Below are positions 5,828-59,246 of a stretch of 64,000 nt of DNA, piece after piece (position 1 is the first letter of the stretch; every line of letters begins with the position of its first letter). A program made the translations under genes and the position numbers. The notes under the pieces were generated by a model. That model worked only from the letters and a program-made list of their open reading frames with translations, did no database searches and was not told the origin of the DNA. The DNA lies in the IMG/VR virus record IMGVR_UViG_3300035520_001860, positions 32,001-96,000 of that record. The stretch is one strand, 5' to 3'. Origin of the DNA: a virus. Taxonomy: Duplodnaviria; Caudoviricetes.

Positions 5828-8026
5828 ATGTTTAATAAGAAAAACAAGCAGAATAATCAAAGTAAAACACCTAATAATGTAAATCAGCAACAACAATTGC
5901 AACAAGCACAACAGCAAGGAAATCTTACACAAGAACAGAAAATGTTCTTAGAGCAATATGAAAATAATAATAGTAGCAAAAATAAGAGAACGTCCAAAAG
6001 AAAAGAAAAAGTGGACATGTATGACATGATTGTAGCTAACTTTCTTGCTGGAAATGCTATAATAGAACCTACGCAAAAGTTAAATAATAGTCAGATAGCA
6101 ATTGGGTTTAGTAATATTTCATCTGAAACACAGATTACTAAATATTACATGATAAATAGATTTCCAGACTGGCTGCAGCCAAGACTTGTTGATAACATTA
6201 GAGCAAGATGTATGAACCCTGGAGTGAAGATAAACTTTTATTTTCATTGTCAGCCACACAGAATAAACTGGGACTCACCTGAAATGAGAAACAGAATGAA
6301 TGTTTGGAGAGACTTTAGTAAAGAACACTCTGGATCAATAGATGTTTTTGATTATAGGGCACAGCATAGTGATTCACAGTTAAGAAACAGAATGATAAAC
6401 TCAACAAAATATCTTAATGAAGCAGAACTTGAATATAAGAGAAGCTTTATGAAAGTATATTTTATTATAACAATTTCTGCAAAACGTGATGAAAATAGCT
6501 TGGCAAACATGTCAGATTCAATTAGTTCACTGAAGAATCTATGTAGTCAGTCTGATATTAAGCTAACAGAACTTAGGGTAAACATGATCGATTGGTTAAG
6601 GGCAATATCGCCATTCTCATTGAACCCTCTTAAAGAAGTTGAAAGCAAATTAGCTAAAAGAGTATTTACTGATGATTTGTTAGCTAACTTTAATAGTTAT
6701 AAACAAGGACGTGTTGGTAATGAAGGTGTATGTCTTGGAATAGATATACTATCACAGACTCCAGTAATGAGAAAATTTAAGAAAGACCCTGATGCAGCTG
6801 ATAACTGGTTAATAAGTGCTGGTACAGGTGGTGGTAAGTCTTTCTGGGTTAAATCATTATTGACATATCTATTAGCAGATGGATTTGTATGTTGTGTAAT
6901 GGACTACGAAGGTGATGAATATACAAACCTAGCAAACTTTATTAGAGCAGGAAATCCAGATGATGTTAAAATAGTTTCTATGGGTAAGGGCAGTAATGTT
7001 TACTTTGACCCTTGTGAAATACCAGATTTAACTGGGGACCCACAAGTAGATGATGACCTTAAGGAAAGTGCTACAAGCTTTATAATGTCAATATTCAGAC
7101 TTATAGTTAGAGGTATGGATGAACCTTTTTCAAAAGAAGAGGAACGTGTAATGTCTCTAGCAATATCTAGAATGTATGATACAGCAGGTGTTACAGAAGA
7201 TAAGAAAACATGGCACAGAAGTAAAGGATTAAGACTACACGACATATATCGTGAAATAAGAGAAATAGTAGATAGCAAAGAGTTAGTTGATAATGATGCA
7301 GATAATCTTAAACACAAAGCAGCCGTTTCTATCATGGATTCATCAAGTATTTATTTTGAGCCTGGTGAGACAAAATCAGAAGTGTTTAAACAGCCTATGA
7401 GTGCTAATGAGTTATATAAAGGTAAGTTTATTGTATTCTCATTTGGTATGAAAGGTGCAGTAGCATCTGCAACAGACCCAGTAATACTTGGACTAAAGCA
7501 ATTATCTGTTGCATACGTTAATATTCAGATATCTAACTATTGCAAATATGTTCGACATTGCTTTAATGTGAAGGTCTGGGAAGAATTTCAAAGGTACGGT
7601 GAAGTTAAGGGTAGTGCCGAGACTATTGCAAACAGCATAACAGGCGGTCGTAAACGAGGCGACGTTAACTTCATTATAACAAATGACTTAGCAGCAATGC
7701 TTGATGATGAAAATACATTAAGTAAAAAGCTTAGACAAAATATACAAAATTTTGCAATAGGAAAGATACCTGATGCATCTACACGAGCAGAGTTTTGTAA
7801 GAAATTTGACCAGCAAGAAATAGCATTGGCACTTGATAATATTGCTAAAGCACATGCAGCTCAGCAATCTGGAGCACAGAAAGTATCAGGTTCACAAAGT
7901 AGATACAAAAATGCATTCTGTGTAGCACTGGAGGATGGAAAGAAGGCAACTGTAAAAGTAAGGCTTCCTTCGGCACTTATGAAATCTTCACTATTCAAAA
8001 CTGGTGTAGACGTAAAAGATGAATAA
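5828..8026 (+). CDS. VirB4/TraC-like type IV secretion ATPase
   Basis: Walker A SAGTGGGKS, VMDYEGDEY, Walker B VKVWEEFQ, and GGRKRGDVNFIITND matching the VirB4 RK.G....TQ motif; 732 aa. Confidence 0.8.
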   Translation: MFNKKNKQNNQSKTPNNVNQQQQLQQAQQQGNLTQEQKMFLEQYENNNSSKNKRTSKRKEKVDMYDMIVANFLAGNAIIEPTQKLNNSQIAIGFSNISSETQITKYYMINRFPDWLQPRLVDNIRARCMNPGVKINFYFHCQPHRINWDSPEMRNRMNVWRDFSKEHSGSIDVFDYRAQHSDSQLRNRMINSTKYLNEAELEYKRSFMKVYFIITISAKRDENSLANMSDSISSLKNLCSQSDIKLTELRVNMIDWLRAISPFSLNPLKEVESKLAKRVFTDDLLANFNSYKQGRVGNEGVCLGIDILSQTPVMRKFKKDPDAADNWLISAGTGGGKSFWVKSLLTYLLADGFVCCVMDYEGDEYTNLANFIRAGNPDDVKIVSMGKGSNVYFDPCEIPDLTGDPQVDDDLKESATSFIMSIFRLIVRGMDEPFSKEEERVMSLAISRMYDTAGVTEDKKTWHRSKGLRLHDIYREIREIVDSKELVDNDADNLKHKAAVSIMDSSSIYFEPGETKSEVFKQPMSANELYKGKFIVFSFGMKGAVASATDPVILGLKQLSVAYVNIQISNYCKYVRHCFNVKVWEEFQRYGEVKGSAETIANSITGGRKRGDVNFIITNDLAAMLDDENTLSKKLRQNIQNFAIGKIPDASTRAEFCKKFDQQEIALALDNIAKAHAAQQSGAQKVSGSQSRYKNAFCVALEDGKKATVKVRLPSALMKSSLFKTGVDVKDE

Positions 8027-8040
8027 AACACATATAGCAG

Positions 8041-8070
8041 AAAGGGTACATCATTAAAATGTATCCTTTT
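8041..8070 (+). terminator. Rho-independent terminator
   Basis: AAAGGGTACAT-loop-ATGTATCCTTTT stem followed by a T-rich run. Confidence 0.65.
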
Positions 8071-8229
8071 GTTTTTACATTTTAATAAACATAAAAAGAT
8101 TTTTATTTTTAGTTAATATACACAAATAATGCAACAATGCATTAACTACATAAAGGTAAATCTTATTATAGTACATTAACAGCAATATAAATAAATTTTA
8201 AATTATTATAATAACAAGGAGTAAAGAAT

Positions 8230-8385
8230 ATGTACTTTTTACTGTTTATAGTAGCTTTTATAGTTATATATGTAGCATCATTTAAAGATAACTTCACACA
8301 GGAAAATATTGAGAAAGTAGCTCCTGTTTTCGTGTTATTAGTATTTGCAACTTTAGTAATTATAGTACTAAAATGCATAGTGTAG
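8230..8385 (+). CDS. Small 51-aa two-TM membrane protein (not in the ORF track)
   Basis: AAGGAG RBS at 8216-8221, ATG at 8230; MYFLLFIVAFIVIYVASFKDNFTQENIEKVAPVFVLLVFATLVIIVLKCIV*; stop abuts the RBS of the next gene. Confidence 0.7.
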   Translation: MYFLLFIVAFIVIYVASFKDNFTQENIEKVAPVFVLLVFATLVIIVLKCIV

Positions 8386-8398
8386 TGGAGGAGAACAA

Positions 8399-10753
8399 AT
8401 GGGATTATTAGACAACAAGATATCACAAGATGATTTGAATAGAGTTAATGATATAAGACATCATCCTGACCTCGAACCTGGTTTTGATGGTGGTGGAGAT
8501 GACTGGTTAAGCGGAGGTGACTCTGGCGGTGGGAGTGACTTTGATGGATTAGACAGTCTTTTTTCTGATGATCTAGGGTCCTCTGGTGGAAACGACATAT
8601 TTGGTGGAGGTTCATCAGGTGGAAGCTCTTTTGGTAGCGATAGTGGTACATTTGGCAGCAACAGTGGTACATTTGGCAGCAATAGGTTTAATAATGGAGG
8701 TACTTTTGGTAACAGTGGAAGTACCTTTGGTAGTAATGGATTCGGTGGTAATACATTTGGTAACAACGGATTCGGCGGTCTTGGTGGGCAAAACCAAATG
8801 CAGGGACAACAAGTACAACAGAAAGATACACTTGATAAAATGATGGATGCTGGGGCAGAGGCAGCTTCTGGCGTTGGGGCAATACTCGTTGAAATGGTAA
8901 AGTCATTCAAGGAAAGAAATGTAGATGACTATGGATACTTGAGTAAAAACCTAATTATTACTGGAGCAGCAATGCTAGGTATAAGTATCTTTGTAGCAAT
9001 TGCTGGAACAGTAGCTAGAGTAACAGCATTTCAATCTTTAGGAATAGAGTCAGCATTAAGTGGAGCACTGCTTGCAACAACGGGTATAGCAGGTTTAGGT
9101 ATAGCAGCTTTCATTTTAACTAAAATGGGAGATCAAGAACTAAATAATAACAACATTTCAAATATACCTGATGAACCAGCTGGTGATGACAATTTTACAG
9201 ATACATTAGATGATAACTCTGGAGATATAATGGATGACTTATTTGGTGATGACTTTGATGATTTATTTGGTGATGATACAACATCAAATATAGCAGCTGA
9301 ACCTGAGGAACCAGAACCAGAAGCAGAATCATTAGAGGTAACACCAATAAATTATAAGGATGAACTTGAAAAAATAAATGAAAACACATATTTATCTAGA
9401 CAAACATTAGTTGAAACATTCTGTAATATGTTCACAACAAATACTGTTGGTTTTGAAAAGAAAACAGAGATTAGTCCAGATTCAACAGAATGGAATCAGC
9501 TTGAGGCAATTTGTCTAAAAGCATTAGCAAACTTAGCAAACTGTACACTTGAGGAAGTAAACTCAAATTTGGAATCAGCAGACAAAACATTATTTGCTTA
9601 TGAACTCAGACTGAAAAGAATAAACAAAGTAAAACAGCCAGATGCTTTAGCAAAAGAAATAGAAATCTATGTAAGAGATGATGATAGTCCAGACGCAACA
9701 GTTACAGCTACAATCTCTGGTGATTTCTACAACATAATAATTGCAACAGGAGAAAATTATGTTGTAACATTTGGTGATGTATTTAAGCTTGATTATTGCA
9801 AGAATTTCTTCTTGAGTGATAAGAATAAGCTACCTATGATAACAGGTATAACAGAGTTAGGTAAAGTAATAGTCGATGATGCAAAGAACTTCGATACTAT
9901 GTTAGTAGCAGGTAAGCCTAGGTCAGGTAAATCATGGTATGTATTAAGTATACTCATGAGTTTAATTCTGTTTAATACACCAGAAGATGTTCAGTTTATC
10001 ATTGTGGATCCAAAAGAGTCAAACCTGTTTAAGACATTGAGTCTATTTCCCCATGTGTGTGGACTACATAATGATAAGCAAATCATTAAAATATTAGATG
10101 ATATCATTGAAGTAGAAGCACCAAGACGTAAGAAATTATTATCAGACAACAGATGCGATGATATATGGGCACTTAGAAAGAAAGGAATTAGACTTCCAGT
10201 GCTTTATTTAGTTATAGACGAGTATATAACTGTAATAAACAATTTAGACAAAGATGCTGCCAAAGAATTTGATGGTAAGATACAGACTCTAATTAGTCAG
10301 CTACCTTCCCAAGGAATCAGGCTCTTGTTCGTACCTCACAGAGCAACTGGGGTTGTAAATAAAACCAATAGAACAATGCTCCAATTTACGGCGGCCGTCA
10401 GAGCTGATATAGACGATGTAATTGATACACTCGGTGTTAAAAAGTGGGATAGAGCACTTACAAAACCCGGTGATATAGCTATAAAGACATCATCAACTCC
10501 TAAAGCAACATATGTTAAGGGTGCAGCATTAACTCCTAGTGACGAAGAGAATACACAATTTATGGAAACTGCAGCAGCAGCCTTCTATAAGATGGGTGTA
10601 GACATACCAGATATGAGTTCAATGAGAATAGCATGTAACAGAGACGAGGAATATGTTCAAAGTGAACTTGGAGCAACTGGAACAAACAGAGTGCAGTATG
10701 ATGCATCTGCAATAATAAATGATCTAGACAATATAGATTTAGACAACTTATAA
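8399..10753 (+). CDS. FtsK/SpoIIIE-family membrane ATPase (TcpA-like coupling protein/DNA translocase) with an FG-repeat N-terminus
   Basis: Two TM helices; Walker A VAGKPRSGKS; FIIVDPK; Walker B LYLVIDE; GIRLLFVPHR in the GI.L..ATQR position; no gamma domain. Confidence 0.85.
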   Translation: MGLLDNKISQDDLNRVNDIRHHPDLEPGFDGGGDDWLSGGDSGGGSDFDGLDSLFSDDLGSSGGNDIFGGGSSGGSSFGSDSGTFGSNSGTFGSNRFNNGGTFGNSGSTFGSNGFGGNTFGNNGFGGLGGQNQMQGQQVQQKDTLDKMMDAGAEAASGVGAILVEMVKSFKERNVDDYGYLSKNLIITGAAMLGISIFVAIAGTVARVTAFQSLGIESALSGALLATTGIAGLGIAAFILTKMGDQELNNNNISNIPDEPAGDDNFTDTLDDNSGDIMDDLFGDDFDDLFGDDTTSNIAAEPEEPEPEAESLEVTPINYKDELEKINENTYLSRQTLVETFCNMFTTNTVGFEKKTEISPDSTEWNQLEAICLKALANLANCTLEEVNSNLESADKTLFAYELRLKRINKVKQPDALAKEIEIYVRDDDSPDATVTATISGDFYNIIIATGENYVVTFGDVFKLDYCKNFFLSDKNKLPMITGITELGKVIVDDAKNFDTMLVAGKPRSGKSWYVLSILMSLILFNTPEDVQFIIVDPKESNLFKTLSLFPHVCGLHNDKQIIKILDDIIEVEAPRRKKLLSDNRCDDIWALRKKGIRLPVLYLVIDEYITVINNLDKDAAKEFDGKIQTLISQLPSQGIRLLFVPHRATGVVNKTNRTMLQFTAAVRADIDDVIDTLGVKKWDRALTKPGDIAIKTSSTPKATYVKGAALTPSDEENTQFMETAAAAFYKMGVDIPDMSSMRIACNRDEEYVQSELGATGTNRVQYDASAIINDLDNIDLDNL
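8586..8790 (+). repeat. Coding FG/GS repeats including a near-perfect 21-bp tandem unit (AGTGGTACATTTGGCAGCAAY x2)
   Basis: Encodes DIFGGGSSGGSSFGSDSGTFGSNSGTFGSNRFNNGGTFGNSGSTFGSNGFGGNTFGNNGFGG. Confidence 0.8.
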
Positions 10754-10784: not shown

Positions 10785-12767
10785 ATGGGAGCACCTAGTA
10801 TTCCAAAGGAAAACATTACAGGTTTAGTTGTAAAGGGATGGATAGTAGATAGGTATGACACAAAAGGTAAATGGGTATGCAAGTGTGAAAAGTGTGGAAA
10901 AGAAGAAATATTCAGAGCATATCATTTAAAAGAAGCACGAGTTAAAATTTGTAATCATTCAAATAATAAGGCTACACATACATTTAAAGATGATTTGACA
11001 GGAAGAACCTTTGGTGAACTAAAAGTAATAGGATTTGATATAGTGAATGGTGTGTGGAAGTGTAAATGTTCATGTGGAAAAGAAGTATACCATACTACAT
11101 ATCAATTAGTAACAAGGGGTGTGAAAACATGTGGACACAGCAGTGGTGTACTAAAAGACCTTAGAGGAAAGAAATTTGGAGAATTAATACCAATTGAATA
11201 CCTAGGTGATAGAACCTGGAAATGTGAGTGTTCTTGTGGAAAAATTACAAACGTTAGAACAACTGACCTTGTGAGTGGAAACACACAATCATGTGGTCAT
11301 CTTAAAACCGGAGCACCTGTAATAGACTTAACAAATCAGCAATTTGGAAACTGGACAGCTTTAAAATATGTTGGAAACAGCTATTGGCAATGTAAGTGTA
11401 CCTGTGGTAATATAGAAAATGTTCATTCATATACATTAAGAAATGGAACATCAACAAGGTGTTCATCACCATTGCATAGAGTAACAGATATAAAAGGAAG
11501 ACAATTTGGTGAGCTACATGTTGAAGAATATACAGGCAATGGATTCTGGAAATGTAAGTGTTCCTGTGGTAAAACAAAAAACATACTTGGAGTCAACTTA
11601 AGAAATGGAAGTACTAGATCATGTGGATGTATGACAGACAAATTATTAAGACAAACATTATTTAGTAGATACAATGAGATATGTCCATCAAGAGTAGATA
11701 ATGCAAGAAGCACACAACAGATAGAAATTTTACATACAAAAGAATTGTTTAATGCACTCCTAGTAGAATACACAATAAGTTATGGAAAACCAGATGCATA
11801 TGCATTAGCAGATATATTAGGCGTTAGTAGATATACAATAGTCAACATGGCTAATAAGTATGATTTACTAGATAAAATAAAAATATACTATAATAGTAGT
11901 AAAGGAGAAAACCAGGTAGCAAACTTTGTAAGAAACATATACAACGGAGAAGTAATACAAAACACTAAGAAAATACTAGATAATGGCAAGGAACTAGATA
12001 TATACATCCCAGATAAACACATCGCAATAGAATTTAATGGAACCTACTGGCATTCCACAATCTACAAAGATAAGTATTATCATCAACAGAAAACATTAGA
12101 TTGTCATAGGCAAGGAATACGATTAATCCATATATTTGAATATGAATGGAATGATGCAGACACACAGCAGAAAATAAAGAATCACTTAGAATTACTATTA
12201 AGTAACAATATACAAACCATTGGAGCACGAAATACAGAAGTAAAAGAAATAGATAAGCAAACAGCAAAAGAGTTTATAGATAAGTACCATCTTCAGAAGT
12301 ATAGTGAGTCATCGGTTAATATAGGATGCTTTTACAACAACGAACTGATTGGAGCATTAACATTAGGTCATCCAAGATTCAACAGTGAGTATCAGTATGA
12401 AATCATAAGATTTTGTTGGAAAGATAGAGTAAAAGTAACAGGTGGCCTAGAGAAATTATTTTCATACTTTATAAAAAATTATCATCCAAAGTCAATAATG
12501 GCATACTCAGATATATCAAAGTTTACTGGCAATTGTTATACAAAGATAGATTTCAAACCAATAAAACAAAATACAATCACAGAACCAAACTACGTATGGG
12601 TTGATATAGAAAGCAACCAAGTACTATCAAGATACCAAACACAAAAGAAGAAGCTAATAGCTAATAATTTAGGTACAGAAGAACAAACAGAAGATGAGAT
12701 AATGGATAATAATGGATTTTTCAAGATATACAACTCAGGTAATATTAAGATGCAATGGGAATACTAA
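10785..12767 (+). CDS. Freestanding homing-endonuclease-like protein, copy 1: five Cys/His Zn-finger repeats, HTH, Vsr/DUF559-like PD-(D/E)xK nuclease, Mom-like GNAT domain
   Basis: Repeats DLTG..FG.....W.C.CSCG...L..G...SCGH; ELDIYIPDKHIAIEFNGTYWH nuclease motif; C-terminal KYHLQ..IGCFYNNELIG..YEIIRFC..SIMAYSD. Confidence 0.8.
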   Translation: MGAPSIPKENITGLVVKGWIVDRYDTKGKWVCKCEKCGKEEIFRAYHLKEARVKICNHSNNKATHTFKDDLTGRTFGELKVIGFDIVNGVWKCKCSCGKEVYHTTYQLVTRGVKTCGHSSGVLKDLRGKKFGELIPIEYLGDRTWKCECSCGKITNVRTTDLVSGNTQSCGHLKTGAPVIDLTNQQFGNWTALKYVGNSYWQCKCTCGNIENVHSYTLRNGTSTRCSSPLHRVTDIKGRQFGELHVEEYTGNGFWKCKCSCGKTKNILGVNLRNGSTRSCGCMTDKLLRQTLFSRYNEICPSRVDNARSTQQIEILHTKELFNALLVEYTISYGKPDAYALADILGVSRYTIVNMANKYDLLDKIKIYYNSSKGENQVANFVRNIYNGEVIQNTKKILDNGKELDIYIPDKHIAIEFNGTYWHSTIYKDKYYHQQKTLDCHRQGIRLIHIFEYEWNDADTQQKIKNHLELLLSNNIQTIGARNTEVKEIDKQTAKEFIDKYHLQKYSESSVNIGCFYNNELIGALTLGHPRFNSEYQYEIIRFCWKDRVKVTGGLEKLFSYFIKNYHPKSIMAYSDISKFTGNCYTKIDFKPIKQNTITEPNYVWVDIESNQVLSRYQTQKKKLIANNLGTEEQTEDEIMDNNGFFKIYNSGNIKMQWEY

Positions 12768-17112: not shown

Positions 17113-18867
17113 ATGGCAGTACTAAACATAATTAAAAAGGACCTAATACCTAAGTATTATGTGTGTGAATTAAGCAAAGATAAGAGTGTAATTGTACATG
17201 AGAATTTGCTAGATAGTAACTTTACTAAAGTAAGAATGGACAAGAGAACTATAGATTTAACAGAAAGTAAGTTTGGTAATTGGCATGTGCATTATTATCT
17301 TGGGGATAGGAAGTGGTTATGTGAGTGTTCATGTGGTAGGCTATGTGCAGTTATTGGATATAATCTAAGTTCTGGTAGATCAACATCATGTGGGCATGAA
17401 AACTATGATGATTTAACAGGTAAGCGGTTCGGAGATTGGCAGGTACTAGAATATGCAGGAACTGAGCATGGAATGACTAGATGGTTATGTGAGTGTTCAT
17501 GCGGAAATAAAAAAGAGGTATATGCAAAAGTACTTACAAATGGGAGGAGTAAGTCATGTGGACATAGTACTAATGCTTTTAATGACCTTACTGGAAAGCA
17601 ATTTGGAGAATGGAGTGTTTTAGAGTATGAGGGGGACCACTATTATAAGTGTCAATGCTCCTGTGGCAAAATAAAAAGCGTAGCTGGGTATTCTTTAACA
17701 CGAGGAGATAGCTTATCTTGTGGGCATAAATCAGCAGCCTGTAGAAAAGATACAATGATGCAGAGATACGGAGACACAGTTCCTGGAAAAAATAGAGAGC
17801 AATGGCAAATAGATATATTATCATCAAAGGAGATATTGGAAGCTTACATAATACACAAAGGGTATAAGCCAACAGCAGAAGAGTTAGCTAAGGAACTTGG
17901 TATAAATAAAACTAATATGTATAGAAATATACATAAGTATGGTATAGAGAACCTTATACTCATAGACTATAATTCATCTAAATATGAAAGAGAGATTGTA
18001 GAATTACTGAATAGTTGGGGAATATGCAACATTGAGGTTAGAGATAAAAAACATGTACCTGGTTTCGAACTAGATATATACATCCCAGACAAAAAACTAG
18101 CAATAGAGTTTAATGGTAGTTATTGGCACTCAGATTTATATAAAGATAAATACTATCATCAAGAAAAAACAATCGAATGTGCAAAACGACACATACAATT
18201 AATTCACATATTTGAATATGAATGGAATGATAACGATACTAAAGAAAAATTAATTAATCTACTGTATACAAGACTAGTTAACACAAAAAATTATATAGGA
18301 GCAAGGGAAACAGTAGTAACATTTATAGATAGTAGTATAGCAAAAGAATTTTGCAATAAATATCATTTGCATGGGTATAGTAATTCAAGTATAAATATAG
18401 GATGCTATTATAAATCAGATTTAATAGGGGTTTTAACATTTGGAAAACCAAGATTTAACAGTAATTATCAATACGAATTAATAAGACTGTGCTGGAAAGA
18501 TGATATAAAGGTACACGGCGGATTAGAAAAAATGTTTACATTATTTATAAAAAGTTACAATGTAAATAATATTATCAGTTATTGTGATATATCAAAGTTT
18601 AATGGAAATGCATATTTGAGACTTGGTTTTACAGTGCAAAATATAAGTGAGCCAAACTATATATGGTATAATTTAAGTAAAAAAACTAAACTAACAAGAT
18701 ATAAAACTCAGAAACATAAATTAGTAGAGGCAGGATTTGGCGATGCAAACAGTACAGAGTCAGATATAATGGAAGACCTAGACTATGTAAAAATACATGA
18801 TAGTGGAAACTTAGTTTTAGAATGGAGAAATCAAAATGGCAGTCAAAGTACCAACAATATGGAATGA
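17113..18867 (+). CDS. Homing-endonuclease-like protein, copy 2: three Zn-finger repeats, HTH, PD-(D/E)xK nuclease, Mom-like GNAT domain
   Basis: Same architecture as 10785..12767; ELDIYIPDKKLAIEFNGSYWH; HTH PTAEELAKELGINKTNMYR. Confidence 0.8.
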   Translation: MAVLNIIKKDLIPKYYVCELSKDKSVIVHENLLDSNFTKVRMDKRTIDLTESKFGNWHVHYYLGDRKWLCECSCGRLCAVIGYNLSSGRSTSCGHENYDDLTGKRFGDWQVLEYAGTEHGMTRWLCECSCGNKKEVYAKVLTNGRSKSCGHSTNAFNDLTGKQFGEWSVLEYEGDHYYKCQCSCGKIKSVAGYSLTRGDSLSCGHKSAACRKDTMMQRYGDTVPGKNREQWQIDILSSKEILEAYIIHKGYKPTAEELAKELGINKTNMYRNIHKYGIENLILIDYNSSKYEREIVELLNSWGICNIEVRDKKHVPGFELDIYIPDKKLAIEFNGSYWHSDLYKDKYYHQEKTIECAKRHIQLIHIFEYEWNDNDTKEKLINLLYTRLVNTKNYIGARETVVTFIDSSIAKEFCNKYHLHGYSNSSINIGCYYKSDLIGVLTFGKPRFNSNYQYELIRLCWKDDIKVHGGLEKMFTLFIKSYNVNNIISYCDISKFNGNAYLRLGFTVQNISEPNYIWYNLSKKTKLTRYKTQKHKLVEAGFGDANSTESDIMEDLDYVKIHDSGNLVLEWRNQNGSQSTNNME

Positions 18868-20467
18868 TATGTATATAGGAAATATGAGTGAACCACAAGC
18901 AGAACTAATAATGCAGACAAGACAATCCAATGTTATTCCAAATTTAAAGAAAATGCTATTTAATTTTCCTTATGAGCTCATACAACAGAGTATAGAAGAA
19001 CAACAAAGTATAAGAAATATAATTAAAAGAGATAATATAGACTATACACAATACATATCAGAATTAAGAGATTACCAAACAGTGGGGACTGCATTCATGT
19101 ATTTATCACCAAGAAGCATAATCGCCGATGGGTGTGGGCTTGGGAAAACTGCTGAGGTCAGCGCTCTTATCAACTGGTTACTTTATAAAGGTGAAATGAC
19201 AAGATTTCTTATGGCTGTTGAAAATAGTGCTGTTGGTCAAACACAGGCTGAAATTATGAGATTTACTGGACTTTATGTCGTTGCATTACCATCAGAGGCA
19301 GCAAAGCTAAAGAAAGTAATAGAGCACACTGATTGGACAAAAGTTGACGGTATTGTAATTAAGCACAGTACATTAAGAAGTGATGCATTCAGTAAATGGT
19401 TAGCACTGAATATCAATTCTGAAGGGCTATGTAATTTATTTGACACTTTCTTTCTTGATGAATCATCAGTAATAAAGAATGATACAACAAAAATGTATCA
19501 GTATACAAAGAACATATGTCAAATAGTCAAGAGAGTTCATCTTATGAACGCTACTACTTTTGAAACTAGCATTGTTGATATTTATAATCAAATTGATATG
19601 ATGGACCAAACACTGTTACCAAAGAAGTGGAGAATAGAAAAAGAGTTCTGTACATTTACACGTACACAGTACTGGACAAAAGAAAATGGCAAAGCTAAAT
19701 TAAACTGGAGGCATGAACGATCTGGATATAAGAATCAAGCAATATTTAAGGAATCATTGAAACTCGTTTATTTTGGCAGATGTAAAGCAGACATTGGCAT
19801 GGATTTACCACATGTTTACAAAGTGTTTGAAGTAGAGCCAACAAATGCTATGAGTGTTGGGTTATCCAAAGGGTATAGATACAGTGAATTACTTAATTGT
19901 CCAAGTCTAATTCCAGAAGCAAACATACCAATGGATAGAAAGAATGTTCCAAAACTTGATAGGTTATGTGACCTTGTAGAGAATGACTTTTCAGATTCAA
20001 GTATAATGATATATTGTTTTCACATAGAGGCACAGAGAGTAATAGCAGATGAACTTGCAAAGATTGGTAGGAAACCAGTAATACTTAATGGAAGTATCAC
20101 AGATTCAAATGAGAGATACAAGATTCAACAAGATTTTAACAATGGGATTTATGATGTAATCATAACAAACATTAAGAAATCATTAAACTTATATGGTGGG
20201 GATGTTTGTATATTTTATAGCATGGAAACAAATCCTAGTAAGTCTTTTCAAATAGCATCTCGTATAGATAGAAATGTCTCTGATGATATAAAAACATTCG
20301 TTATGTTATTGTATAAAGGCACTGATGAGTATAAGTTCTTTACTACAACAGTTAAGCAGCGAGCAAAAGATGCTAGGGATCTTACAATTGATGCTAAAAC
20401 AACAGTAGATTTCTTCTTTGAATCAATGATGGCAGAGGAAACAGCCGAACTAAATGGTAAAGCCTAA
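18836..20467 (+). CDS. SNF2-family (SF2) helicase/ATPase
   Basis: LRDYQ Q-motif, IADGCGLGKT Walker A, FLDESS Walker B, C-terminal helicase domain (IYCFH, SLNL, QIASRIDR). Confidence 0.85.
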   Translation: MAVKVPTIWNDMYIGNMSEPQAELIMQTRQSNVIPNLKKMLFNFPYELIQQSIEEQQSIRNIIKRDNIDYTQYISELRDYQTVGTAFMYLSPRSIIADGCGLGKTAEVSALINWLLYKGEMTRFLMAVENSAVGQTQAEIMRFTGLYVVALPSEAAKLKKVIEHTDWTKVDGIVIKHSTLRSDAFSKWLALNINSEGLCNLFDTFFLDESSVIKNDTTKMYQYTKNICQIVKRVHLMNATTFETSIVDIYNQIDMMDQTLLPKKWRIEKEFCTFTRTQYWTKENGKAKLNWRHERSGYKNQAIFKESLKLVYFGRCKADIGMDLPHVYKVFEVEPTNAMSVGLSKGYRYSELLNCPSLIPEANIPMDRKNVPKLDRLCDLVENDFSDSSIMIYCFHIEAQRVIADELAKIGRKPVILNGSITDSNERYKIQQDFNNGIYDVIITNIKKSLNLYGGDVCIFYSMETNPSKSFQIASRIDRNVSDDIKTFVMLLYKGTDEYKFFTTTVKQRAKDARDLTIDAKTTVDFFFESMMAEETAELNGKA

Positions 20468-48948: not shown

Positions 48949-50517
48949 ATGGCAAACTTGAAAGACGATGATATAGCTTTCGATGATATGGAGTTTGACA
49001 CAAATGACTTCGATGATGGAGAATTTGATATTAATGAGGGCGAAGATGAAATAATAGATGGTTCCGATGAAATTATAATGGATGAGCCTATAGAAGAATC
49101 ATCTGGAGACTCATTAGATGTTATGGCAAGCTTTCATGATGAAGCTGTAGACGAATCTGATTTAGATGGAGCAATTGTTGATGGAGTTGATCTTCATGAG
49201 GATGAAGATGAACAGATTGACAATGAGATGGACTTCATAAGTGATGCAGGTAACATAGTAGTTCAAGATGCTAATGACGATGGTGAAAAAGGATTCGGAC
49301 TCCAGTATATTAATATAGAAAAAATAGCTATAACACAGAGAATTAGAAAAATGCAGTCTGTAGAAGGATTGGTACAATCTATTCAATCTACTGGATTATT
49401 ATGTCCTATAGTTGTGGCACCAACAGCTACAGAAGGACTGTATGTTCTATTAGAGGGATACAGAAGATTACAAGCATGTGCAAGAGTAGGTTTAACTAAA
49501 GTACCTTGTGTTGTTAATAATCGTGTAAGCACTCCAGAAATACCAATTCTTGAGGCTATGTACAATCATTCACAGAAATACTCAATTAAAGAGCAGGTTG
49601 ATTACATTAATTATCTTGAAACACAAAAAGGTATTATGAATCCAGCCATGATTGAATATTTGTTACAGATGAATAGTGGTGATTATACAAAATTAAAAGA
49701 TATATTAGCAGATAACGATGATGATATAGTCGAAAAATTGTATGATGGAGCATATGATATAGGAACTGCATTTAGAAAATTGGAGCAGCGTCGTAAGAAA
49801 GAAACTCTTGAGGAAAAAGAGAACAAGAAGGCAGCAAGGGTTTATGATGACGAAGAAGCATCAGGAGCAGACCAGATTGAAGGTAGTGGTGAAGATGCTG
49901 ACAGTGATGCTTTGACAGAGGATCAAATAAATGCACTTGCAATAAATGCAGAAGATCTTGATGATGATATAGAAGAAACATCTCTTAATGAAATGGTTGA
50001 GGAAGATAAGAACCTTGAAGGATTTAAGCCACATAAACAGAAAGTTGGAGAGCGTGAATATGTAGACCCAATCATCAAGAAAACAGTAATGGCACGAGAT
50101 AAGTCAACATGCCAGTGCTGTAAAAGGGGTGGAGAACAATATGTTGACATCCTGGACTATCATCATATACTCCCTGTCTTCTTGTCGGGAGCCGATACAC
50201 CAGAGAATGGCATAATGTTATGTGTGTCATGTCATAGACTTGTTCATTTATATTCCACAGATGATCTACATATAGATACTGCATTACTAACAGGCAGTTA
50301 TGATGATTTAACTGACGAGCAGAAGAGTCATTATGAGAATGAAGAAATCTTCGAAGATGAAAAAAGACGATTCAAAAGGATTATAAAGCTTGGTTCTGTG
50401 ATTCGAAAAGGCATTGTCGCCAAGGGAATGAACAAAGACCAGTATAAGAAAGAACATTCCAATAACGGCATAGGCAGAAGAAAACCTGGTGTCAATGCAG
50501 AACAAGAAACTCTGTAA
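48949..50517 (+). CDS. ParB/Srx-domain protein fused to a C-terminal HNH (Zn-binding) endonuclease domain
   Basis: LVQSIQSTGLLCPIVV...YVLLEGYRRLQAC ParB motif; RDKSTCQCC...DYHHILP...ENGIMLCVSCH HNH motif; acidic N-terminus. Confidence 0.8.
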   Translation: MANLKDDDIAFDDMEFDTNDFDDGEFDINEGEDEIIDGSDEIIMDEPIEESSGDSLDVMASFHDEAVDESDLDGAIVDGVDLHEDEDEQIDNEMDFISDAGNIVVQDANDDGEKGFGLQYINIEKIAITQRIRKMQSVEGLVQSIQSTGLLCPIVVAPTATEGLYVLLEGYRRLQACARVGLTKVPCVVNNRVSTPEIPILEAMYNHSQKYSIKEQVDYINYLETQKGIMNPAMIEYLLQMNSGDYTKLKDILADNDDDIVEKLYDGAYDIGTAFRKLEQRRKKETLEEKENKKAARVYDDEEASGADQIEGSGEDADSDALTEDQINALAINAEDLDDDIEETSLNEMVEEDKNLEGFKPHKQKVGEREYVDPIIKKTVMARDKSTCQCCKRGGEQYVDILDYHHILPVFLSGADTPENGIMLCVSCHRLVHLYSTDDLHIDTALLTGSYDDLTDEQKSHYENEEIFEDEKRRFKRIIKLGSVIRKGIVAKGMNKDQYKKEHSNNGIGRRKPGVNAEQETL

Positions 50518-50529
50518 CAAGGAGATTAA

Positions 50530-52002
50530 ATGGAAAGAGCATTTAGAACTACTTCATATCCAGAACAGTATATAGGATTTGCATGTAAAAACACATTTAA
50601 GCATGTGGAACTGAATAAACGAATGGGAAATGGTATGGAGGCTGACATAGCAATTTGGGATACAAACACAATAATAGAATACAACGGAGTTTATTGGCAT
50701 AAACCAGAAAGAGATGAACGAAAGAAAAAATTCATAGAATCCTATGGAATAAGACTAATAAGAATTTGGGATAGTGATGCAACAGGAAAATCTAAAGCAT
50801 ATGCAAAAATTATTTCAGAAAATGACATAGAGTTTAACAGATACTTAAGAGATATGTCGCCAGTCATTCCATTATTAGAGTCATTACTTAAAACTAAATT
50901 GGTTATATCCGATAATATGGAAAATGATGTACTGGATTTTGTAAATCAAAACATCCGAGACCAGAATCTAGCATTTCAATATCCTGATATAGCAGAAGAA
51001 TTGTTAGATGTAGACCCATCAAAATTATTTATTACAGATAGTAAAACACGCAGATGGAAATGTAAAACATGCGGAACAGTATTTCAAACCAGTGTAGGAC
51101 ATAGAGTTTATAATAAAACAAATTGTCCAGCCTGTGCAGGAAATATAGCAATTCCAGGAAAGACAGATATACTCACAGTATTACCAGAGTATGCAAATGA
51201 GATAACAAGTTTAACAGAGGAGGAAAAAAGAAACACATTACCATTTTCCACACAAACTGTTATCTGGAAATGTTCCAACTGTGGTTATACATGGAATAGT
51301 GATATAAGACAACGTACAGTAGTTAAAACAAGCTGTCCAAAATGTGGATATTTACCACTAAATATAAATAGAGATGACTTTGTAGATATAAAATATCTTC
51401 AAGATGTAAAAAAGCCTATTAGTCAAATGCAAATATATAATCAAATATACAATGTTGATATTGCTGATGCAATAGGAGTAATAGTAAATGCACTGTTGAA
51501 AATAGGAAAATCATTAGACAATATAGTTAGTCTAGCAGATTTGATTAACAATAGGTCACAGGAAGAAAAGATATCATACAACAGTGATATTTACATAGCA
51601 CCAAAACTTATAACAACATATAATAACAAAGCAATTTATATAGAGGGTAATGCTGGAACACAGTATAAGATAAACATACTTAAAGCATTATTAGATACAT
51701 TTAATATAAAAGCCTTATTTAAGATAAAGGATGAATACAAATTACCTAAAAGAATTACAGTAGCTAAAAATGGTGTGGATTTTAATGTAACAACTAGGAT
51801 AAGCGGTAAAATAGTTTATATAGGCAGACGAAGAACAGTAGATGAAGCATTAAGATTAAAACTATCAGCAGAAGTATATTTCTTTGGTAACATACTGATT
51901 CAATCAGATCTGCAACTACTTCAAAACCAAACCATTCCAGATTTTAAAACAATGCCAGAATATGAAAAATTTAAAGACAAGTATGGAGGAAACAACAGTT
52001 GA
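50530..52002 (+). CDS. Homing-endonuclease-like protein: N-terminal Vsr/DUF559-like nuclease, two Zn-ribbon (DUF4379-like) repeats, C-terminal AP2-like domain
   Basis: EADIAIWDTNTIIEYNGVYWH...IRLIRIWD; YPDIAEE..WKCKTCG..NCPAC x2; ISGKIVYIGRRRTVDEALRLKLSAEVYFFG. Confidence 0.7.
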   Translation: MERAFRTTSYPEQYIGFACKNTFKHVELNKRMGNGMEADIAIWDTNTIIEYNGVYWHKPERDERKKKFIESYGIRLIRIWDSDATGKSKAYAKIISENDIEFNRYLRDMSPVIPLLESLLKTKLVISDNMENDVLDFVNQNIRDQNLAFQYPDIAEELLDVDPSKLFITDSKTRRWKCKTCGTVFQTSVGHRVYNKTNCPACAGNIAIPGKTDILTVLPEYANEITSLTEEEKRNTLPFSTQTVIWKCSNCGYTWNSDIRQRTVVKTSCPKCGYLPLNINRDDFVDIKYLQDVKKPISQMQIYNQIYNVDIADAIGVIVNALLKIGKSLDNIVSLADLINNRSQEEKISYNSDIYIAPKLITTYNNKAIYIEGNAGTQYKINILKALLDTFNIKALFKIKDEYKLPKRITVAKNGVDFNVTTRISGKIVYIGRRRTVDEALRLKLSAEVYFFGNILIQSDLQLLQNQTIPDFKTMPEYEKFKDKYGGNNS

Positions 52003-52484
52003 ATAAAGAATGTGCAGTAACTGAAAATAACATATACATAGACACATTAGGTAAGAAACAGCAGACTAAAATACTCAATACAATTAATATAAAAGAGCAT
52101 GAAGATAGTGTAAAAAGAAAAGCATTTATTAGAGACAAATTTACATGTCAGTGCTGTAAACGAGGTGGAGATAAATATATAGATATACTTGATGTTCATC
52201 ATATAATACCATTGGAATTTGGTGGAGATGCAACAGTAGAGAATAGTGTAACATTGTGTGTTGCATGTCATAGACTTATTCATCTTTATTCTACTAGAGA
52301 ACTTTACATCGACAAAGCTTTCTATAGCAGCTATGATAAATTAACAGATAGGCAAAAGAAACAGTATCAAAGTAAAATGATATTTGATGACGAAAAGAGA
52401 AGATTTGAAAGAATAATAGTACTAGGTTCTATAATACGAAAAAGCATAGTAACAAAGGGAATGAACAAAGATAAAAATAATTAG
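51999..52484 (+). CDS. Stand-alone HNH endonuclease domain, a paralogous duplicate of the C-terminus of 48949..50517
   Basis: RDKFTCQCCKRGGDKYIDILDVHHIIP...LCVACHRLIHLYST...DEKRRFERIIVLGSIIRKSIVTKGMNKD. Confidence 0.75.
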   Translation: MNKECAVTENNIYIDTLGKKQQTKILNTINIKEHEDSVKRKAFIRDKFTCQCCKRGGDKYIDILDVHHIIPLEFGGDATVENSVTLCVACHRLIHLYSTRELYIDKAFYSSYDKLTDRQKKQYQSKMIFDDEKRRFERIIVLGSIIRKSIVTKGMNKDKNN

Positions 52485-55325: not shown

Positions 55326-55333
55326 ACATTTAG

Positions 55334-57772: not shown

Positions 57773-57776
57773 AAAA

Positions 57777-57814
57777 AATGAAGTAAATGCTGAAATAACA
57801 GCATTTACTTCATT
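57777..57814 (+). terminator. Hairpin (possibly a bidirectional terminator)
   Basis: AATGAAGTAAATGCTG-AAATAA-CAGCATTTACTTCATT perfect 16-bp stem. Confidence 0.75.
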
Positions 57815-57849
57815 ATAATAAAAAATTAAAGTTTTAAATTTAGCAGCAG

Positions 57850-58065
57850 TTGAGAGGTAGCATTGAGAAAATGATTATTCAAGTAATGAAAAAAGGGAAG
57901 ACCGAGGGATATGTTAAAAGCATAAATTATAATGCATGTGAGACAAAACTTACTGATGATAAGTCAAATGCTAAGAAATATTCAAGTGAAGACAAAGTGC
58001 ATTATGATATAGACTTTTTGTCAAAGGTTTATGGCAATAGTGAATATGTTTTTATTTATGAATAA
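57850..58065 (+). CDS. Small hypothetical protein
   Basis: ORF between the vWA and AAA genes; likely start ATG at 57871. Confidence 0.55.
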   Translation: MRGSIEKMIIQVMKKGKTEGYVKSINYNACETKLTDDKSNAKKYSSEDKVHYDIDFLSKVYGNSEYVFIYE

Positions 58066-58088
58066 TTAGAAAGGTAGGAAACAGAAAA

Positions 58089-59246
58089 ATGGCTGAGACA
58101 TTAAATATGAGAGAAGCTAGTGTAAAAGAGATAACAAACTTTATAAAAGATTTGTTTAACATGGAGATTTATGATCCAGTAATAATTCTTGGTAAGATGG
58201 GCATGGGAAAAACAGCATCCTTAAAAGAACTTGCTAAAGAGCTTGGGATTGGATATTGCGAGCTTAGATTAGTAAATATGACAGAGACTGATATGCTCGG
58301 AATCCCGACTATTAGTAGTACAGGCACTACAACTTATGCTAGTAACGATTTACTCCCAATAGAAACTAGAGATGGTGAACGTGGAATTTTAGCATTAGAC
58401 GAAATTACTTCTTGTTCAGCAGTAATGAGAGCAGCAGCTTATCAGTTACTTGATGGACAGAGAGCTTTAGGTAACTACAAACTTCCAGAGAAGTGGATAT
58501 GTGTTGGACTTGGTAATGGACCAGATGATGGTGGTGTGTTCAATGGTGCTGAGGCAGCTTTATTTACAAGATGTTACGGATTTAGAGTAGCATTAAGTCT
58601 TGAAGCTTGGAAGTCATGGGCACTTAAGAATAACATTAATCCTTCTGTTACTGCTTATCTATCATATGCACCTGACAAGTTACATGTTTATAATCCAGAT
58701 GAACTTGATGGATTATGCCCAACACCTCGTACTTGGGAGAAATTAAGTAAGTTACTTAACGCGAAAGAGAAATACAATAATGGTGAGCCTGTTCCAACAG
58801 ACGTAGCAGAGTTCTTAGCATCAGCATCTATTGGAACTAAGGAAGCTGGATTCTTCTCTGGATTCTACGAGTATAACTTAAAGAAGGAAGTATTAAATGT
58901 TACAGATATACTTGATGGAAAAGCAGATGGTAGAAAAGTTGGAGCAAATGAGCCTCAGATAGTTTACATAGCTATAGAATCTATGGTTAAGAAACTTAAT
59001 GAAGAGATTGAAAGCTCTAAGAGTAAAACAGGTAAAGTTTCTGGCGAAGTGATGAAAAGATTAGGAAATGCAGTAAACTGGTTAATAGCTGCTTCTAATA
59101 CTAAGTTAGACTACGGTGTAATGGGACTTAGAGACTTAGCATCTGGTATTGATTCATTCATTGAACTTACATGTACAAATGAGTTTGATGAAATGTGTCC
59201 TGAATTTTTGAAGTTCTCTATTGATAACGGAAATGTAGTATCTTAG
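58089..59246 (+). CDS. MoxR-like AAA+ ATPase (partner of DUF2201-vWA proteins)
   Basis: LGKMGMGKT Walker A, ETDMLGIP, ILALDEI Walker B, AYQLL, CPTPRTWE sensor. Confidence 0.85.
   Translation: MAETLNMREASVKEITNFIKDLFNMEIYDPVIILGKMGMGKTASLKELAKELGIGYCELRLVNMTETDMLGIPTISSTGTTTYASNDLLPIETRDGERGILALDEITSCSAVMRAAAYQLLDGQRALGNYKLPEKWICVGLGNGPDDGGVFNGAEAALFTRCYGFRVALSLEAWKSWALKNNINPSVTAYLSYAPDKLHVYNPDELDGLCPTPRTWEKLSKLLNAKEKYNNGEPVPTDVAEFLASASIGTKEAGFFSGFYEYNLKKEVLNVTDILDGKADGRKVGANEPQIVYIAIESMVKKLNEEIESSKSKTGKVSGEVMKRLGNAVNWLIAASNTKLDYGVMGLRDLASGIDSFIELTCTNEFDEMCPEFLKFSIDNGNVVS

What the first reader, a model, noticed from the sequence alone, without database searches (positions are those of the whole stretch)
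7550..58310. CpG-rich, apparently recoded patches sit on catalytic motifs of core ATPase genes, mostly next to the endonuclease genes
Seen: the window is CpG-poor, but short patches dense in CG-containing codons occur at dnaB 42170-42385 (about 16 CG in ~215 bp, motifs H3/H4, just upstream of copy 4), ftsK 10385-10470 (upstream of copy 1), SNF2 Walker A 19120-19165 (downstream of copy 2), gyrB EGRSA 28975-29010 (upstream of copy 3) and ParB-HNH 50180-50470 (upstream of the AP2 nuclease). Similar patches at virB4 7550-7665, gyrA 38660-38730 and moxR 58255-58310 have no adjacent nuclease. Known: freestanding homing endonucleases cut conserved sites in neighbouring genes of nuclease-free alleles, and the carrier allele escapes by sequence change. 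Inference: these patches are synonymously recoded, immune target sites. They would predict each nuclease's target and mark lost or distant nucleases.
Basis: partly seen in the sequence, partly recalled or inferred. Interest (0 to 1): 0.8.

Follow-up and report, generated by a model that had tools for sequence, protein, structure and literature searches.

The report
Rare-codon islands beside phage homing nucleases
In this large uncultured gut phage, short stretches of conserved genes are spelled with unusual G/C-ending codons right next to selfish DNA-cutting genes, which fits cut-resistant versions of the nucleases' target sites, a known trick of T4-like phages, though cutting was not tested.

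Summary
Observation partly confirmed; interpretation partly supported. The window is CpG-poor (O/E 0.35). After conditioning on the amino acids, CpG clustering remains: 8 windows of 100 bp hold 6 or more CpG, against 1 expected. Only dnaB is extreme (16 CpG against 2.4). The signal is better described as discrete 60-130 bp islands of rare G/C-ending synonymous codons; CpG is a by-product.

An unbiased whole-genome scan puts 7 of the 10 strongest islands within 500 bp of 5 of the 6 free-standing EDxHD/Vsr-type nuclease genes (0 of 5000 circular shifts). The effect survives matching for conservation and is absent at the same positions in two relatives that lack four of the five nucleases.

At dnaB, 15 alleles show a weak link between nuclease occupancy and islands (p 0.04-0.06). 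The occupancy-linked variants cluster in the island (0 of 600 relabelings).

About half of the CpG excess is lineage-wide retention at conserved motifs. The gyrB patch is stronger in a nuclease-free relative. Pooled cross-genome tests are not significant (p 0.10-0.23), and co-conversion could not be shown.

Best reading (about 0.5): cleavage-resistant target sites. This is a new member of a known kind. The scan's earlier AI notes describe similar recoding beside endonucleases in giant viruses.

The parts
42226..42357 (+). dnaB island: rare G/C-ending synonymous codons in a conserved block (RNPEETIDVTSGGESAETVRTPDEVIGLFSSKEE), 146-277 bp upstream of nuclease copy 4
   Evidence: Rarity z -7.3 and GC3 z 6.0, the top window of the whole genome. 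10 CpG in the 91-bp core. G001 scores z 0.0 at the same place. Identical in the independent assembly L139.
42319..42342 (+). Candidate recognition core of the dnaB-adjacent nuclease (codons for EVIGLFSS)
   Evidence: The common spelling in nuclease-free alleles is GAA GTA ATA GGT TTA TTC AGT AGT. None of the 10 nuclease- or remnant-linked alleles keeps GTA ATA. Discriminating positions 42324, 42327 and 42340 lie here. This is an inference; no cleavage was shown.
10292..10441 (+). ftsK island, 344-493 bp upstream of nuclease copy 1
   Evidence: zw -6.1 against zG1 -1.4 and zG2 -0.2. Bounded by about 300 bp of normal codons before the nuclease gene.
19076..19195 (+). SNF2 Walker-A island, 209-328 bp downstream of nuclease copy 2
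   Evidence: zw -4.9; partly shared with G001 (-2.0), not with G002 (+1.6).
50092..50241 (+). ParB-HNH island a, 289-438 bp upstream of the zinc-finger nuclease cassette
   Evidence: zw about -5. All 8 cassette-free alleles, and the other cassette-bearing allele L132, score -1.9 or milder at the aligned positions.
50332..50481 (+). ParB-HNH island b, 49-198 bp upstream of the cassette
   Evidence: zw -4.4 to -4.7; the other 9 alleles are no lower than -2.4 over the same rows.
10785..12767 (+). Nuclease copy 1 (zinc-finger-repeat array + Vsr-like nuclease + Mom/GNAT-like C-terminus)
   Evidence: phrog_3339 'homing endonuclease' E 2e-88. The family profile matches the I-Bth0305I catalytic domain, 3r3p, E 4.9e-7.
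17113..18867 (+). Nuclease copy 2; absent at this site in G001 and G002
29782..31374 (+). Nuclease copy 3; absent in G001, G002 and L136. No window-specific island nearby.
42503..44395 (+). Nuclease copy 4; itself atypical in composition (CpG 34 against 17.4 expected, GC3 0.33)
   Evidence: Absent in L002, L001, L126, L127 and L136. Frameshifted in L122. Remnants in L124, L128 and L137.
50530..52002 (+).
   Evidence: Pfam DUF4379 E 6e-19, no AP2 hit. BLASTP 34-37% to copies 1 and 4. Present in L132, absent in 8 other alleles.
51999..52484 (+). 161-aa stand-alone HNH ORF overlapping the cassette's stop codon; paralog of the ParB-HNH C-terminal domain
   Evidence: Pfam HNH E 1e-10. 56% identical to the window's own ParB-HNH tail. 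Not homologous to the small ORFs at this place in relatives.
7550..7665 (+). virB4/HerA-like patch, with no nuclease nearby in any genome seen
   Evidence: 8 CpG against 1.6 expected. zw -4.0, zG1 -0.9, zG2 -0.5. Unexplained.
38612..38730 (+). gyrA 5' patch; relative L125 carries a same-family nuclease directly upstream of gyrA
   Evidence: zw -4.5, zG1 -1.8. L125 nuclease C-terminus at 3-572 before gyrA at 708.
28975..29010 (+). gyrB EGRSA patch: not window-specific
   Evidence: zw -2.1 to -2.6 against zG1 -2.6 to -3.4, in a relative without the nuclease.
58255..58310 (+). moxR patch: weak
   Evidence: 3 CpG, p 0.01 post hoc; zw -2.4. L132 and L133 carry nucleases upstream of moxR but have no island there.

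Best explanation
The strong patches are in dnaB, ftsK and SNF2, plus two in ParB-HNH. They are discrete 60-130 bp islands in which conserved protein motifs are spelled with rare, mostly G/C-ending synonymous codons; CpG richness is a by-product of this.

The islands lie 50-500 bp from free-standing homing endonuclease genes of the EDxHD/Vsr type. These genes are sporadically present, frameshifted or reduced to remnants in related phages.

The most likely reading is that the islands are cleavage-resistant versions of target sites for the resident nuclease or for related nucleases circulating in this phage lineage. The nucleases would recognise a conserved motif as it is normally spelled, with the lineage's preferred A/T-ending codons. 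An allele that must keep the protein but escape cutting can then only move to rare codons.

The one characterised EDxHD enzyme footprints about 60 bp, and few single substitutions reduce its cleavage. That would explain why many neighbouring codons are changed at once.

Shown here: the islands, their synonymy, their specificity to this genome, their proximity to nuclease genes, and the clustering of occupancy-linked variants at dnaB. Inferred: cutting, the target position, and resistance.

The weak patches (gyrB, moxR, part of gyrA and SNF2) mostly reflect a lineage-wide habit of conserved motifs to retain CpG and rare codons.
For: Association inside this genome:
- Of the 10 strongest rare-codon windows outside nuclease genes, 7 lie within 500 bp of a nuclease gene, at 5 of the 6 nuclease loci. 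0 of 5000 circular shifts reach this.
- Inside the window, the top 5 of 5 are near a nuclease, although only 11.7% of windows are.
- The sixth locus lies outside the window. It repeats the proximity, but there the whole upstream gene is atypical rather than one island.

Control for conservation:
- Among windows at least 90% identical to G001 in protein, those near a nuclease junction have mean z -2.27 (n 14) against -0.21 (n 49), Mann-Whitney p 1e-4.
- The same positions in G001 and G002 show no such effect. Those relatives lack four of the five nucleases.

Shape of the islands:
- They are bounded on both sides by normal codons.
- Relatives spell the same residues with common codons.

dnaB, 15 alleles:
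- Nuclease- or remnant-linked alleles have minimum z from -7.3 to -2.2; free alleles from -5.1 to -0.9 (p 0.038 counting remnants as linked, 0.064 without them).
- 7 of 11 occupancy-discriminating positions fall in 42237-42360, which holds 7% of variable sites. 0 of 600 relabelings match this.
- L137 keeps only a nuclease remnant yet has a strong island.

Nuclease family:
- phrog_3339 E about 1e-85.
- The profile matches the I-Bth0305I catalytic domain, E 4.9e-7.

Literature:
- Cleavage sites of free-standing endonucleases lie hundreds to thousands of bp from their genes (PMC2988022, section 7).
- I-Bth0305I footprints about 60 bp, and few single substitutions reduce cleavage (PMC3239194, abstract).
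Against: - No cleavage data exist.
- Other nuclease-bearing alleles (L122, L125, L132, L133, L135, L138) have only mild islands and do not share the window's codons.
- The other cassette-bearing ParB allele, L132, lacks both ParB islands.
- G001 and G002 carry nucleases after ftsK but have no island within 500 bp of them.
- Alleles with nucleases upstream of moxR and of the 311-aa gene have no island, while nuclease-free L134 does.
- The pooled, locus-stratified permutation test gives p 0.10, or 0.23 without the window genome.
- Nuclease-free L001 has a fairly strong dnaB island, z -5.1.
- Copy 3 next to gyrB has no window-specific island.
- The changes consistently go to G/C even where A/T synonyms were available, and they are not transition-biased. 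Escape alone does not predict this.
Confidence: 0.5

Rival explanations
1. Recombination or repair footprints without selection for immunity. The islands would be short gene-conversion tracts copied from diverged, G+C-richer relatives during repair of nuclease-induced breaks, or products of GC-biased repair at those breaks. They would mark where breaks happen but confer nothing.
For: - Copy 4 nuclease (z -8.3, GC3 0.33, CpG 1.96 times expected) is compositionally foreign over its whole length.
- So is the whole gene upstream of the sixth copy (z -10, GC3 0.45).
- Cumulative CpG excess rises over 42.1-45 kb.
- Window-derived changes in the islands are 62% AT-to-GC, against 46% elsewhere. This comparison is partly circular.
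- Homing nuclease genes sit at boundaries of genetic exchange in phages (PMC10448857).
Against: - The islands are separated from the nuclease genes by normal-codon DNA.
- Copies 1 and 2 and the 50530 cassette have ordinary codon usage.
- The protein sequence inside the islands is the lineage's own.
- No donor sequence was found.
- The synonymous-only test for shared haplotypes is not significant.
Confidence: 0.25
2. There is no link to the nucleases. The patches would be the tail of a lineage-wide tendency of highly conserved motifs to keep CpG and rare codons, for example because half of the CpG-decay routes are non-synonymous there. Homing nucleases simply insert next to such conserved genes.
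For: - CpG observed/expected rises from 0.8 in blocks below 70% identity to 1.4-1.5 in blocks above 85%. G001 shows the same trend.
- CpG per block is correlated between the window and G001 (rho 0.27, p 1e-7).
- G001 and G002 hold 7-8 CpG in the dnaB patch, and 5 of the window's 16 are shared with G001.
- The gyrB patch is stronger in G001.
- G002's strongest rare-codon window is in the same dnaB region.
Against: - The conservation-matched comparison still gives p 1e-4, and only in the nuclease-bearing genome.
- The window-minus-G001 contrast puts the top 4 of 4 windows next to nucleases (p 1e-4).
- The relatives' most extreme windows reach only z about -4.3, against -7.3 here.
Confidence: 0.15
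3. The islands are functional cis elements. They would be G+C-rich 'addresses' in an A+T-rich genome, bound by the zinc-finger arrays for regulation or self-marking (the nucleases carry a Mom/GNAT-like domain), or RNA structures or translation pauses.
For: - DNA-binding domains of homing nucleases can favour GC-rich DNA (PMC10448857, discussion).
- The nucleases carry 3-6 zinc-finger-like repeats and a Mom-like C-terminal domain.
Against: - The RNA fold of the dnaB island is unremarkable (z -1.45), and no terminator was found.
- No repeat or motif was seen within the dnaB island. The islands were not compared with one another.
- The islands are not conserved in relatives that carry the homologous nucleases.
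Confidence: 0.1

Closest known systems
Intronless homing by free-standing endonucleases of T-even phages (SegF, SegG, MobE)
   Same: - The nuclease gene lies between conserved genes.
- The target is expected in a neighbouring conserved gene, hundreds of bp away (PMC2988022).
- The carrier genome is thought to be protected by nucleotide polymorphisms (PMC2790892).
- Distribution among relatives is sporadic, with degenerate copies.
   Different: - The nuclease is of another family (Vsr-like EDxHD with a zinc-finger-repeat array and a GNAT-like tail, not GIY-YIG or HNH).
- The candidate resistant sites are dense blocks of rare synonymous codons rather than a few polymorphisms.
- Nothing here has been shown by cleavage or by crosses.
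I-Bth0305I, prototype of the EDxHD (Vsr-like) homing endonucleases (PDB 3r3p; PMC3239194)
   Same: - The catalytic domain matches by sequence profile (E 4.9e-7).
- It is phage-borne and targets a conserved replication or recombination gene.
- Its roughly 60-bp footprint and tolerance of single substitutions fit the size and density of the islands.
   Different: - I-Bth0305I is encoded in a group I intron and cuts at its own insertion site. The genes here are free-standing.
- The genes here have N-terminal zinc-finger repeats and an extra C-terminal Mom-like domain.
Mobile endonuclease ORFs that bring a replacement gene tail (fungal mitochondrial mORFs)
   Same: At ParB-HNH, a second copy of the gene's C-terminal HNH domain lies just beyond the inserted cassette (51999-52484).
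   Different: - The upstream gene is full length and 92% identical to G001 over the part shared with the extra ORF.
- The downstream copy is an intact, diverged (56%) ORF rather than a stranded original tail.
- The other cassette-bearing relative lacks it.

Membership tests
Free-standing homing endonuclease with a resistant resident target (intronless homing) | Nuclease gene in an intergenic position between genes conserved in relatives | tested here: met
   Gene order and orthologs in G001 and G002.
Free-standing homing endonuclease with a resistant resident target (intronless homing) | Presence/absence polymorphism at the same site among related genomes, with decaying copies | tested here: met
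   At the dnaB site: 8 occupied alleles (one of them frameshifted, L122), 3 remnants (L124, L128, L137) and 5 empty. Copies 2, 3 and 4 and the 50530 cassette are absent in G001 and G002.
Free-standing homing endonuclease with a resistant resident target (intronless homing) | Nuclease domain of a recognised homing endonuclease family | tested here: met
   phrog_3339 E about 1e-85. Profile hit to I-Bth0305I, 3r3p, E 4.9e-7. The Pfam MTES_1575 hit is only weak and below its cut-off.
Free-standing homing endonuclease with a resistant resident target (intronless homing) | Resident and nuclease-free alleles differ in sequence at a site within recombination distance | tested here: met
   dnaB: 7 of 11 discriminating positions lie in 42237-42360, with 0 of 600 relabelings matching. 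For ftsK, ParB and SNF2 the only evidence is the codon-rarity contrast.
Free-standing homing endonuclease with a resistant resident target (intronless homing) | Co-conversion of flanking markers with the nuclease gene | tested here: inconclusive
   Nucleotide identity rises among linked alleles at the dnaB 3' end. The synonymous-only test is not significant and the trees are unresolved, because synonymous sites are saturated.
Free-standing homing endonuclease with a resistant resident target (intronless homing) | The nuclease cuts the nuclease-free allele and spares the resident one | not testable with these tools
   Needs protein expression and cleavage assays.
EDxHD (Vsr-like) homing endonuclease family | Vsr-like catalytic domain with the family's conserved acidic and histidine residues | tested here: inconclusive
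   The domain-level sequence match is met. The invariant residues E403, D405, H423 and H433 of the four paralogs were not mapped onto I-Bth0305I residues, and no structure was predicted.
EDxHD (Vsr-like) homing endonuclease family | [quoted passage not shown] | tested here: not met
   All copies are separate ORFs between intact genes. They therefore work like EDxHD enzymes at most and are not prototype-like elements.
mORF-type cassette carrying a replacement gene tail | The upstream tail is foreign and the original tail is stranded downstream as a remnant | tested here: inconclusive
   The upstream tail is 92% identical to G001. The downstream HNH ORF is intact, 53-56% identical, and has ordinary codon usage. 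It is absent from L132.

The most novel reading that the evidence does not exclude
Dense rare-codon islands would be a general, computable footprint of an arms race between modular zinc-finger-array nucleases and essential phage genes. Each island would mark a roughly 60-bp recognition site that was re-spelled many codons at once, also in genomes that have lost or never had the nuclease. Targets of uncharacterised homing nucleases could then be read from sequence alone. A variant of this reading is that the islands arise from GC-biased repair at nuclease-induced breaks, a phage counterpart of biased gene conversion.
Probability: 0.2. Interest if true: 0.7.

Novelty: new member of a known kind. 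Interest (0 to 1): 0.45.

Why it matters
If the islands are resistant target sites, they give specific, testable target predictions for a poorly known class of natural zinc-finger-array nucleases in an abundant gut phage lineage. The clearest prediction is the EVIGLFSS-coding stretch of dnaB. They would also show that free-standing homing nucleases leave a compositional scar that can be found without experiments. That would help to annotate selfish elements and recombination hot spots in uncultured phages. If the islands are only repair scars or conserved-motif effects, the finding is ordinary.

Tried and rejected
- **Unsuitable nulls.** Independent codon resampling, and a null conditioned on the previous base, both over-predicted total CpG (842 and 859 against 568). 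I replaced them with a null conditioned on a following G.
- **Synonymous spike.** The dnaB core shows 19 of 29.
- **Co-conversion haplotype.** Sliding identity suggested a shared haplotype. It did not survive the synonymous-only test or the trees.
- **Transition-driven escape.** This does not explain the G/C direction: 25 transitions against 28 transversions in the islands.
- **RNA structure, terminator, promoter or repeat in the dnaB island.** Nothing beyond chance.
- **Donor search.** Exact 20-26-mers of the dnaB and ftsK islands gave no hit in viral contigs.
- **Close relative of copy 4 in viral contigs.** None above 41% identity.
- **Nuclease remnants in the window's intergenic gaps.** None.
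- **Phage isolate records.** No DnaB match.
- **Metagenome records.** They could not be searched further by handle.
- **Exact-protein look-up.** The L122 neighbour was not on record. The P0022 place came without DNA.
- **Sequencing runs.** None was listed for 41500-44600, so no read-level check of polymorphism was possible.
- **Pooled cross-genome test.** Nuclease-adjacent against nuclease-free alleles over 7 loci was not significant.

Full report
**What the window is.** The window is bases 32001-96000 of a 133,586-bp virus record. It has about 32% G+C, all long ORFs lie on the + strand, and CpG is strongly depleted (O/E 0.353). Relatives lie on metagenome contigs of up to 600 kb and carry IF3 and SmpB genes, so this is probably a fragment of a very large uncultured phage.

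- a HerA/VirB4-like ATPase
- FtsK
- an SNF2 helicase
- GyrB and GyrA
- a weak DnaB_C match
- ParB-HNH

**The nuclease genes.** The four 'endonuclease copies' are paralogs, 46-49% identical. Each has 3-6 zinc-finger-like repeats, a nuclease domain and a Mom/GNAT-like C-terminus.
- They match phrog_3339 'homing endonuclease' at E about 1e-85.
- Their profile matches the catalytic domain of I-Bth0305I (3r3p), the prototype of the Vsr-like EDxHD homing endonucleases, at E 4.9e-7 (PMC3239194).
- A sixth family member lies outside the window, at genome 16327-17361.
- The 'AP2 nuclease' has DUF4379 zinc fingers and a piece of the same nuclease domain, but no detectable AP2 domain.

**Checking the observation.** Naive codon resampling over-predicts CpG, because the genome also avoids C|G across codon boundaries. 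A null conditioned on the amino acid and on a following G reproduces the total (570 against 568).

Under this null:
- dnaB 42170-42385 has 16 CpG against 2.4 expected.
- virB4 has 8 against 1.6, ftsK 6 against 1.1, and gyrB 4 against 0.44.
- SNF2, gyrA, moxR and ParB-HNH are only nominally enriched (p 0.005-0.014, chosen post hoc).
- Eight 100-bp windows hold 6 or more CpG against one expected.
- The dnaB maximum of 11 was never reached in 5000 resamplings.

So clustering is real after correcting for amino-acid content, but only dnaB is extreme. An independent assembly is identical over the dnaB island.

**What the signal really is.** I ran an unbiased scan for 30-codon windows with atypical synonymous codon choice. 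It returns dnaB 42253-42342 (GC3 z 6.0, rarity z -7.3), SNF2 19082-19171, ftsK 10316-10405 and two windows in ParB-HNH, plus several windows inside nuclease copy 4. The SNF2 and ParB windows hold only 2-3 CpG each. The feature is therefore rare G/C-ending codons, and CpG is a by-product.

The islands are discrete. They are 60-130 bp long and flanked on both sides by ordinary codons. They lie 50-500 bp from a nuclease gene.

**Link to the nucleases within this genome.**
- In the whole genome, 7 of the 10 strongest windows outside nuclease genes lie within 500 bp of a nuclease gene, at 5 of the 6 loci. No circular shift out of 5000 reaches this.
There the whole upstream gene is atypical rather than a single island.
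- The link is not explained by conservation. Among windows at least 90% identical in protein to G001, those near a junction have mean z -2.27 against -0.21 (p 1e-4). The same positions in G001 and G002, which lack four of the five nucleases, show no effect.
- Ranking by the difference between the window and G001 puts the top four windows in dnaB, ParB-HNH (two) and ftsK (p 1e-4).

**Comparison with relatives.** G001 and G002 (loci L002 and L001) lack copies 2, 3 and 4 and the ParB cassette. Both keep a nuclease after ftsK.

In the dnaB core, the relatives encode the same residues with common codons. For example, the window has ACG GTG CGT ACG CCC where G001 has ACA GTT AGA ACA CCT.
- Five of the 16 CpGs are shared with G001, and the relatives still hold 7-8 CpG in those 216 bp.
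- CpG excess rises with conservation in both genomes, and CpG per block is correlated between them.

The gyrB patch is in fact stronger in nuclease-free G001. Synonymous sites are saturated, with 43-48% of same-residue codons differing. The predicted 'spike of synonymous differences' therefore cannot be read.

**Fifteen dnaB alleles**. Eight carry a nuclease downstream; one of these (L122) is frameshifted. L124, its partial twin L128 and L137 keep only remnants. Five are empty.
- Every linked allele departs from the ordinary spelling somewhere in 42166-42346. Minimum z runs from -7.3 to -2.2.
- Free alleles range from -5.1 to -0.9 (one-sided p 0.038 counting remnants as linked, 0.064 without them).
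- The three strong islands (window, L134 and L137) use different codons.
- Seven of the eleven positions that best separate linked from free alleles fall in 42237-42360, which holds 7% of the variable positions. No random relabeling out of 600 matches this.
- Free alleles mostly read GAA GTA ATA GGT TTA TTC AGT AGT for EVIGLFSS. No linked allele keeps GTA ATA. This gives a concrete candidate site.

**Where the reading is weak.**
- The other cassette-bearing ParB allele (L132) lacks the window's ParB islands.
- G001 and G002 show no island within 500 bp of their own ftsK-adjacent nucleases.
- Alleles with nucleases upstream of moxR, or upstream of a 311-aa gene, have none. Nuclease-free L134 does have islands at those two sites.
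- A locus-stratified permutation test over seven sites gives p 0.10, or 0.23 without the window genome.
- Co-conversion, suggested by sliding identity, is not supported by synonymous-only counts or by trees.
- The consistent move to G/C, with no excess of transitions, is not predicted by escape alone.
- Nuclease copy 4, and the gene upstream of the sixth copy, are compositionally foreign over their whole length. Import by recombination therefore contributes at some loci.

**Mechanism.** Free-standing endonucleases cut hundreds to thousands of bp from their own gene (PMC2988022). The MobE-carrying genome is thought to be spared through local polymorphisms (PMC2790892). I-Bth0305I footprints about 60 bp, and few single substitutions lower its cleavage (PMC3239194).

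A nuclease of this type, aimed at a conserved motif in its usual A/T-rich spelling, could only be escaped by changing many adjacent wobble positions. That produces a rare-codon island of the observed size. I consider this the best explanation (about 0.5). It is followed by repair or recombination scars without selection (0.25), a pure conserved-motif effect (0.15) and cis-element functions (0.1).

Relatives carry same-family nucleases directly upstream of gyrA (L125) and moxR (L132, L133). The virB4 patch remains unexplained.

**Novelty.** The principle is known from T-even phages. What is new is the nuclease type, the targets, and the density and multiplicity of the recoding. I found no paper describing rare-codon islands as a footprint of homing nucleases. 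Earlier AI notes of this scan report similar recoding beside endonuclease genes in giant viruses; I did not check them.

Noticed in passing
window 51999-52484: A 161-aa stand-alone HNH ORF overlaps the stop codon of the zinc-finger nuclease cassette. It is a 56% identical paralog of the neighbouring ParB-HNH C-terminal domain. It is absent from the other cassette-bearing relative (L132) and unrelated to the small ORFs found at this place in relatives. It could be the cassette's own nuclease subunit or a stranded foreign gene tail.
   Followed up: partly
G000:C1:15288-16100 (L129:2289-3101), outside the window: The 270-aa gene directly upstream of the sixth nuclease copy has the most atypical codon usage in the genome over its whole length (z -10, GC3 0.45). 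It has no PHROG match and looks like an imported gene rather than a recoded patch.
   Followed up: partly
window 42503-44395: Nuclease copy 4 is itself CpG-rich (34 against 17.4 expected) and has GC3 0.33, unlike copies 1-3. Cumulative CpG excess rises over 42.1-45 kb, which suggests a recent arrival from a less CpG-depleted relative.
   Followed up: partly
L134 (ERZ28565194 scaffold_4, 526 kb): This relative also has strong rare-codon islands at dnaB (z -6.1), at the moxR 5' end (-4.4) and at the 5' end of a 311-aa gene (-4.9). The last two sites are free of nucleases in L134 but occupied in other relatives. These are possible resistant alleles without a nuclease.
   Followed up: partly
window 42306-42313: The dnaB island contains the 8-bp palindrome GCGTACGC, with three CpG. 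This is unusual for so CpG-poor a genome, but it may be chance.
   Followed up: no
window 42367-42381 and 42461-42475: A 15-nt direct repeat (14 of 15 identical) sits 94 bp apart at the end of dnaB, read in different frames. It is probably chance.
   Followed up: no
window 54135-54638: A 167-aa ORF with high GC3 (0.375). Same-sized ORFs at the same place in relatives carry IF3_N and IF3_C domains, so this is probably a phage-encoded translation initiation factor 3. The window's own copy was not scanned.
   Followed up: no
whole window and relatives G001, G002: CpG is very strongly depleted throughout the lineage (O/E 0.35, 0.30 and 0.25), including across codon boundaries. The cause (host restriction, methylation or mutation bias) is unknown.
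   Followed up: no
L133:5025-7028 and L135:5371-7143: Same-family nucleases occupy yet another site, upstream of the 311-aa gene that is homologous to window 45504-46439. Across the lineage the family uses at least eight insertion sites.
   Followed up: partly
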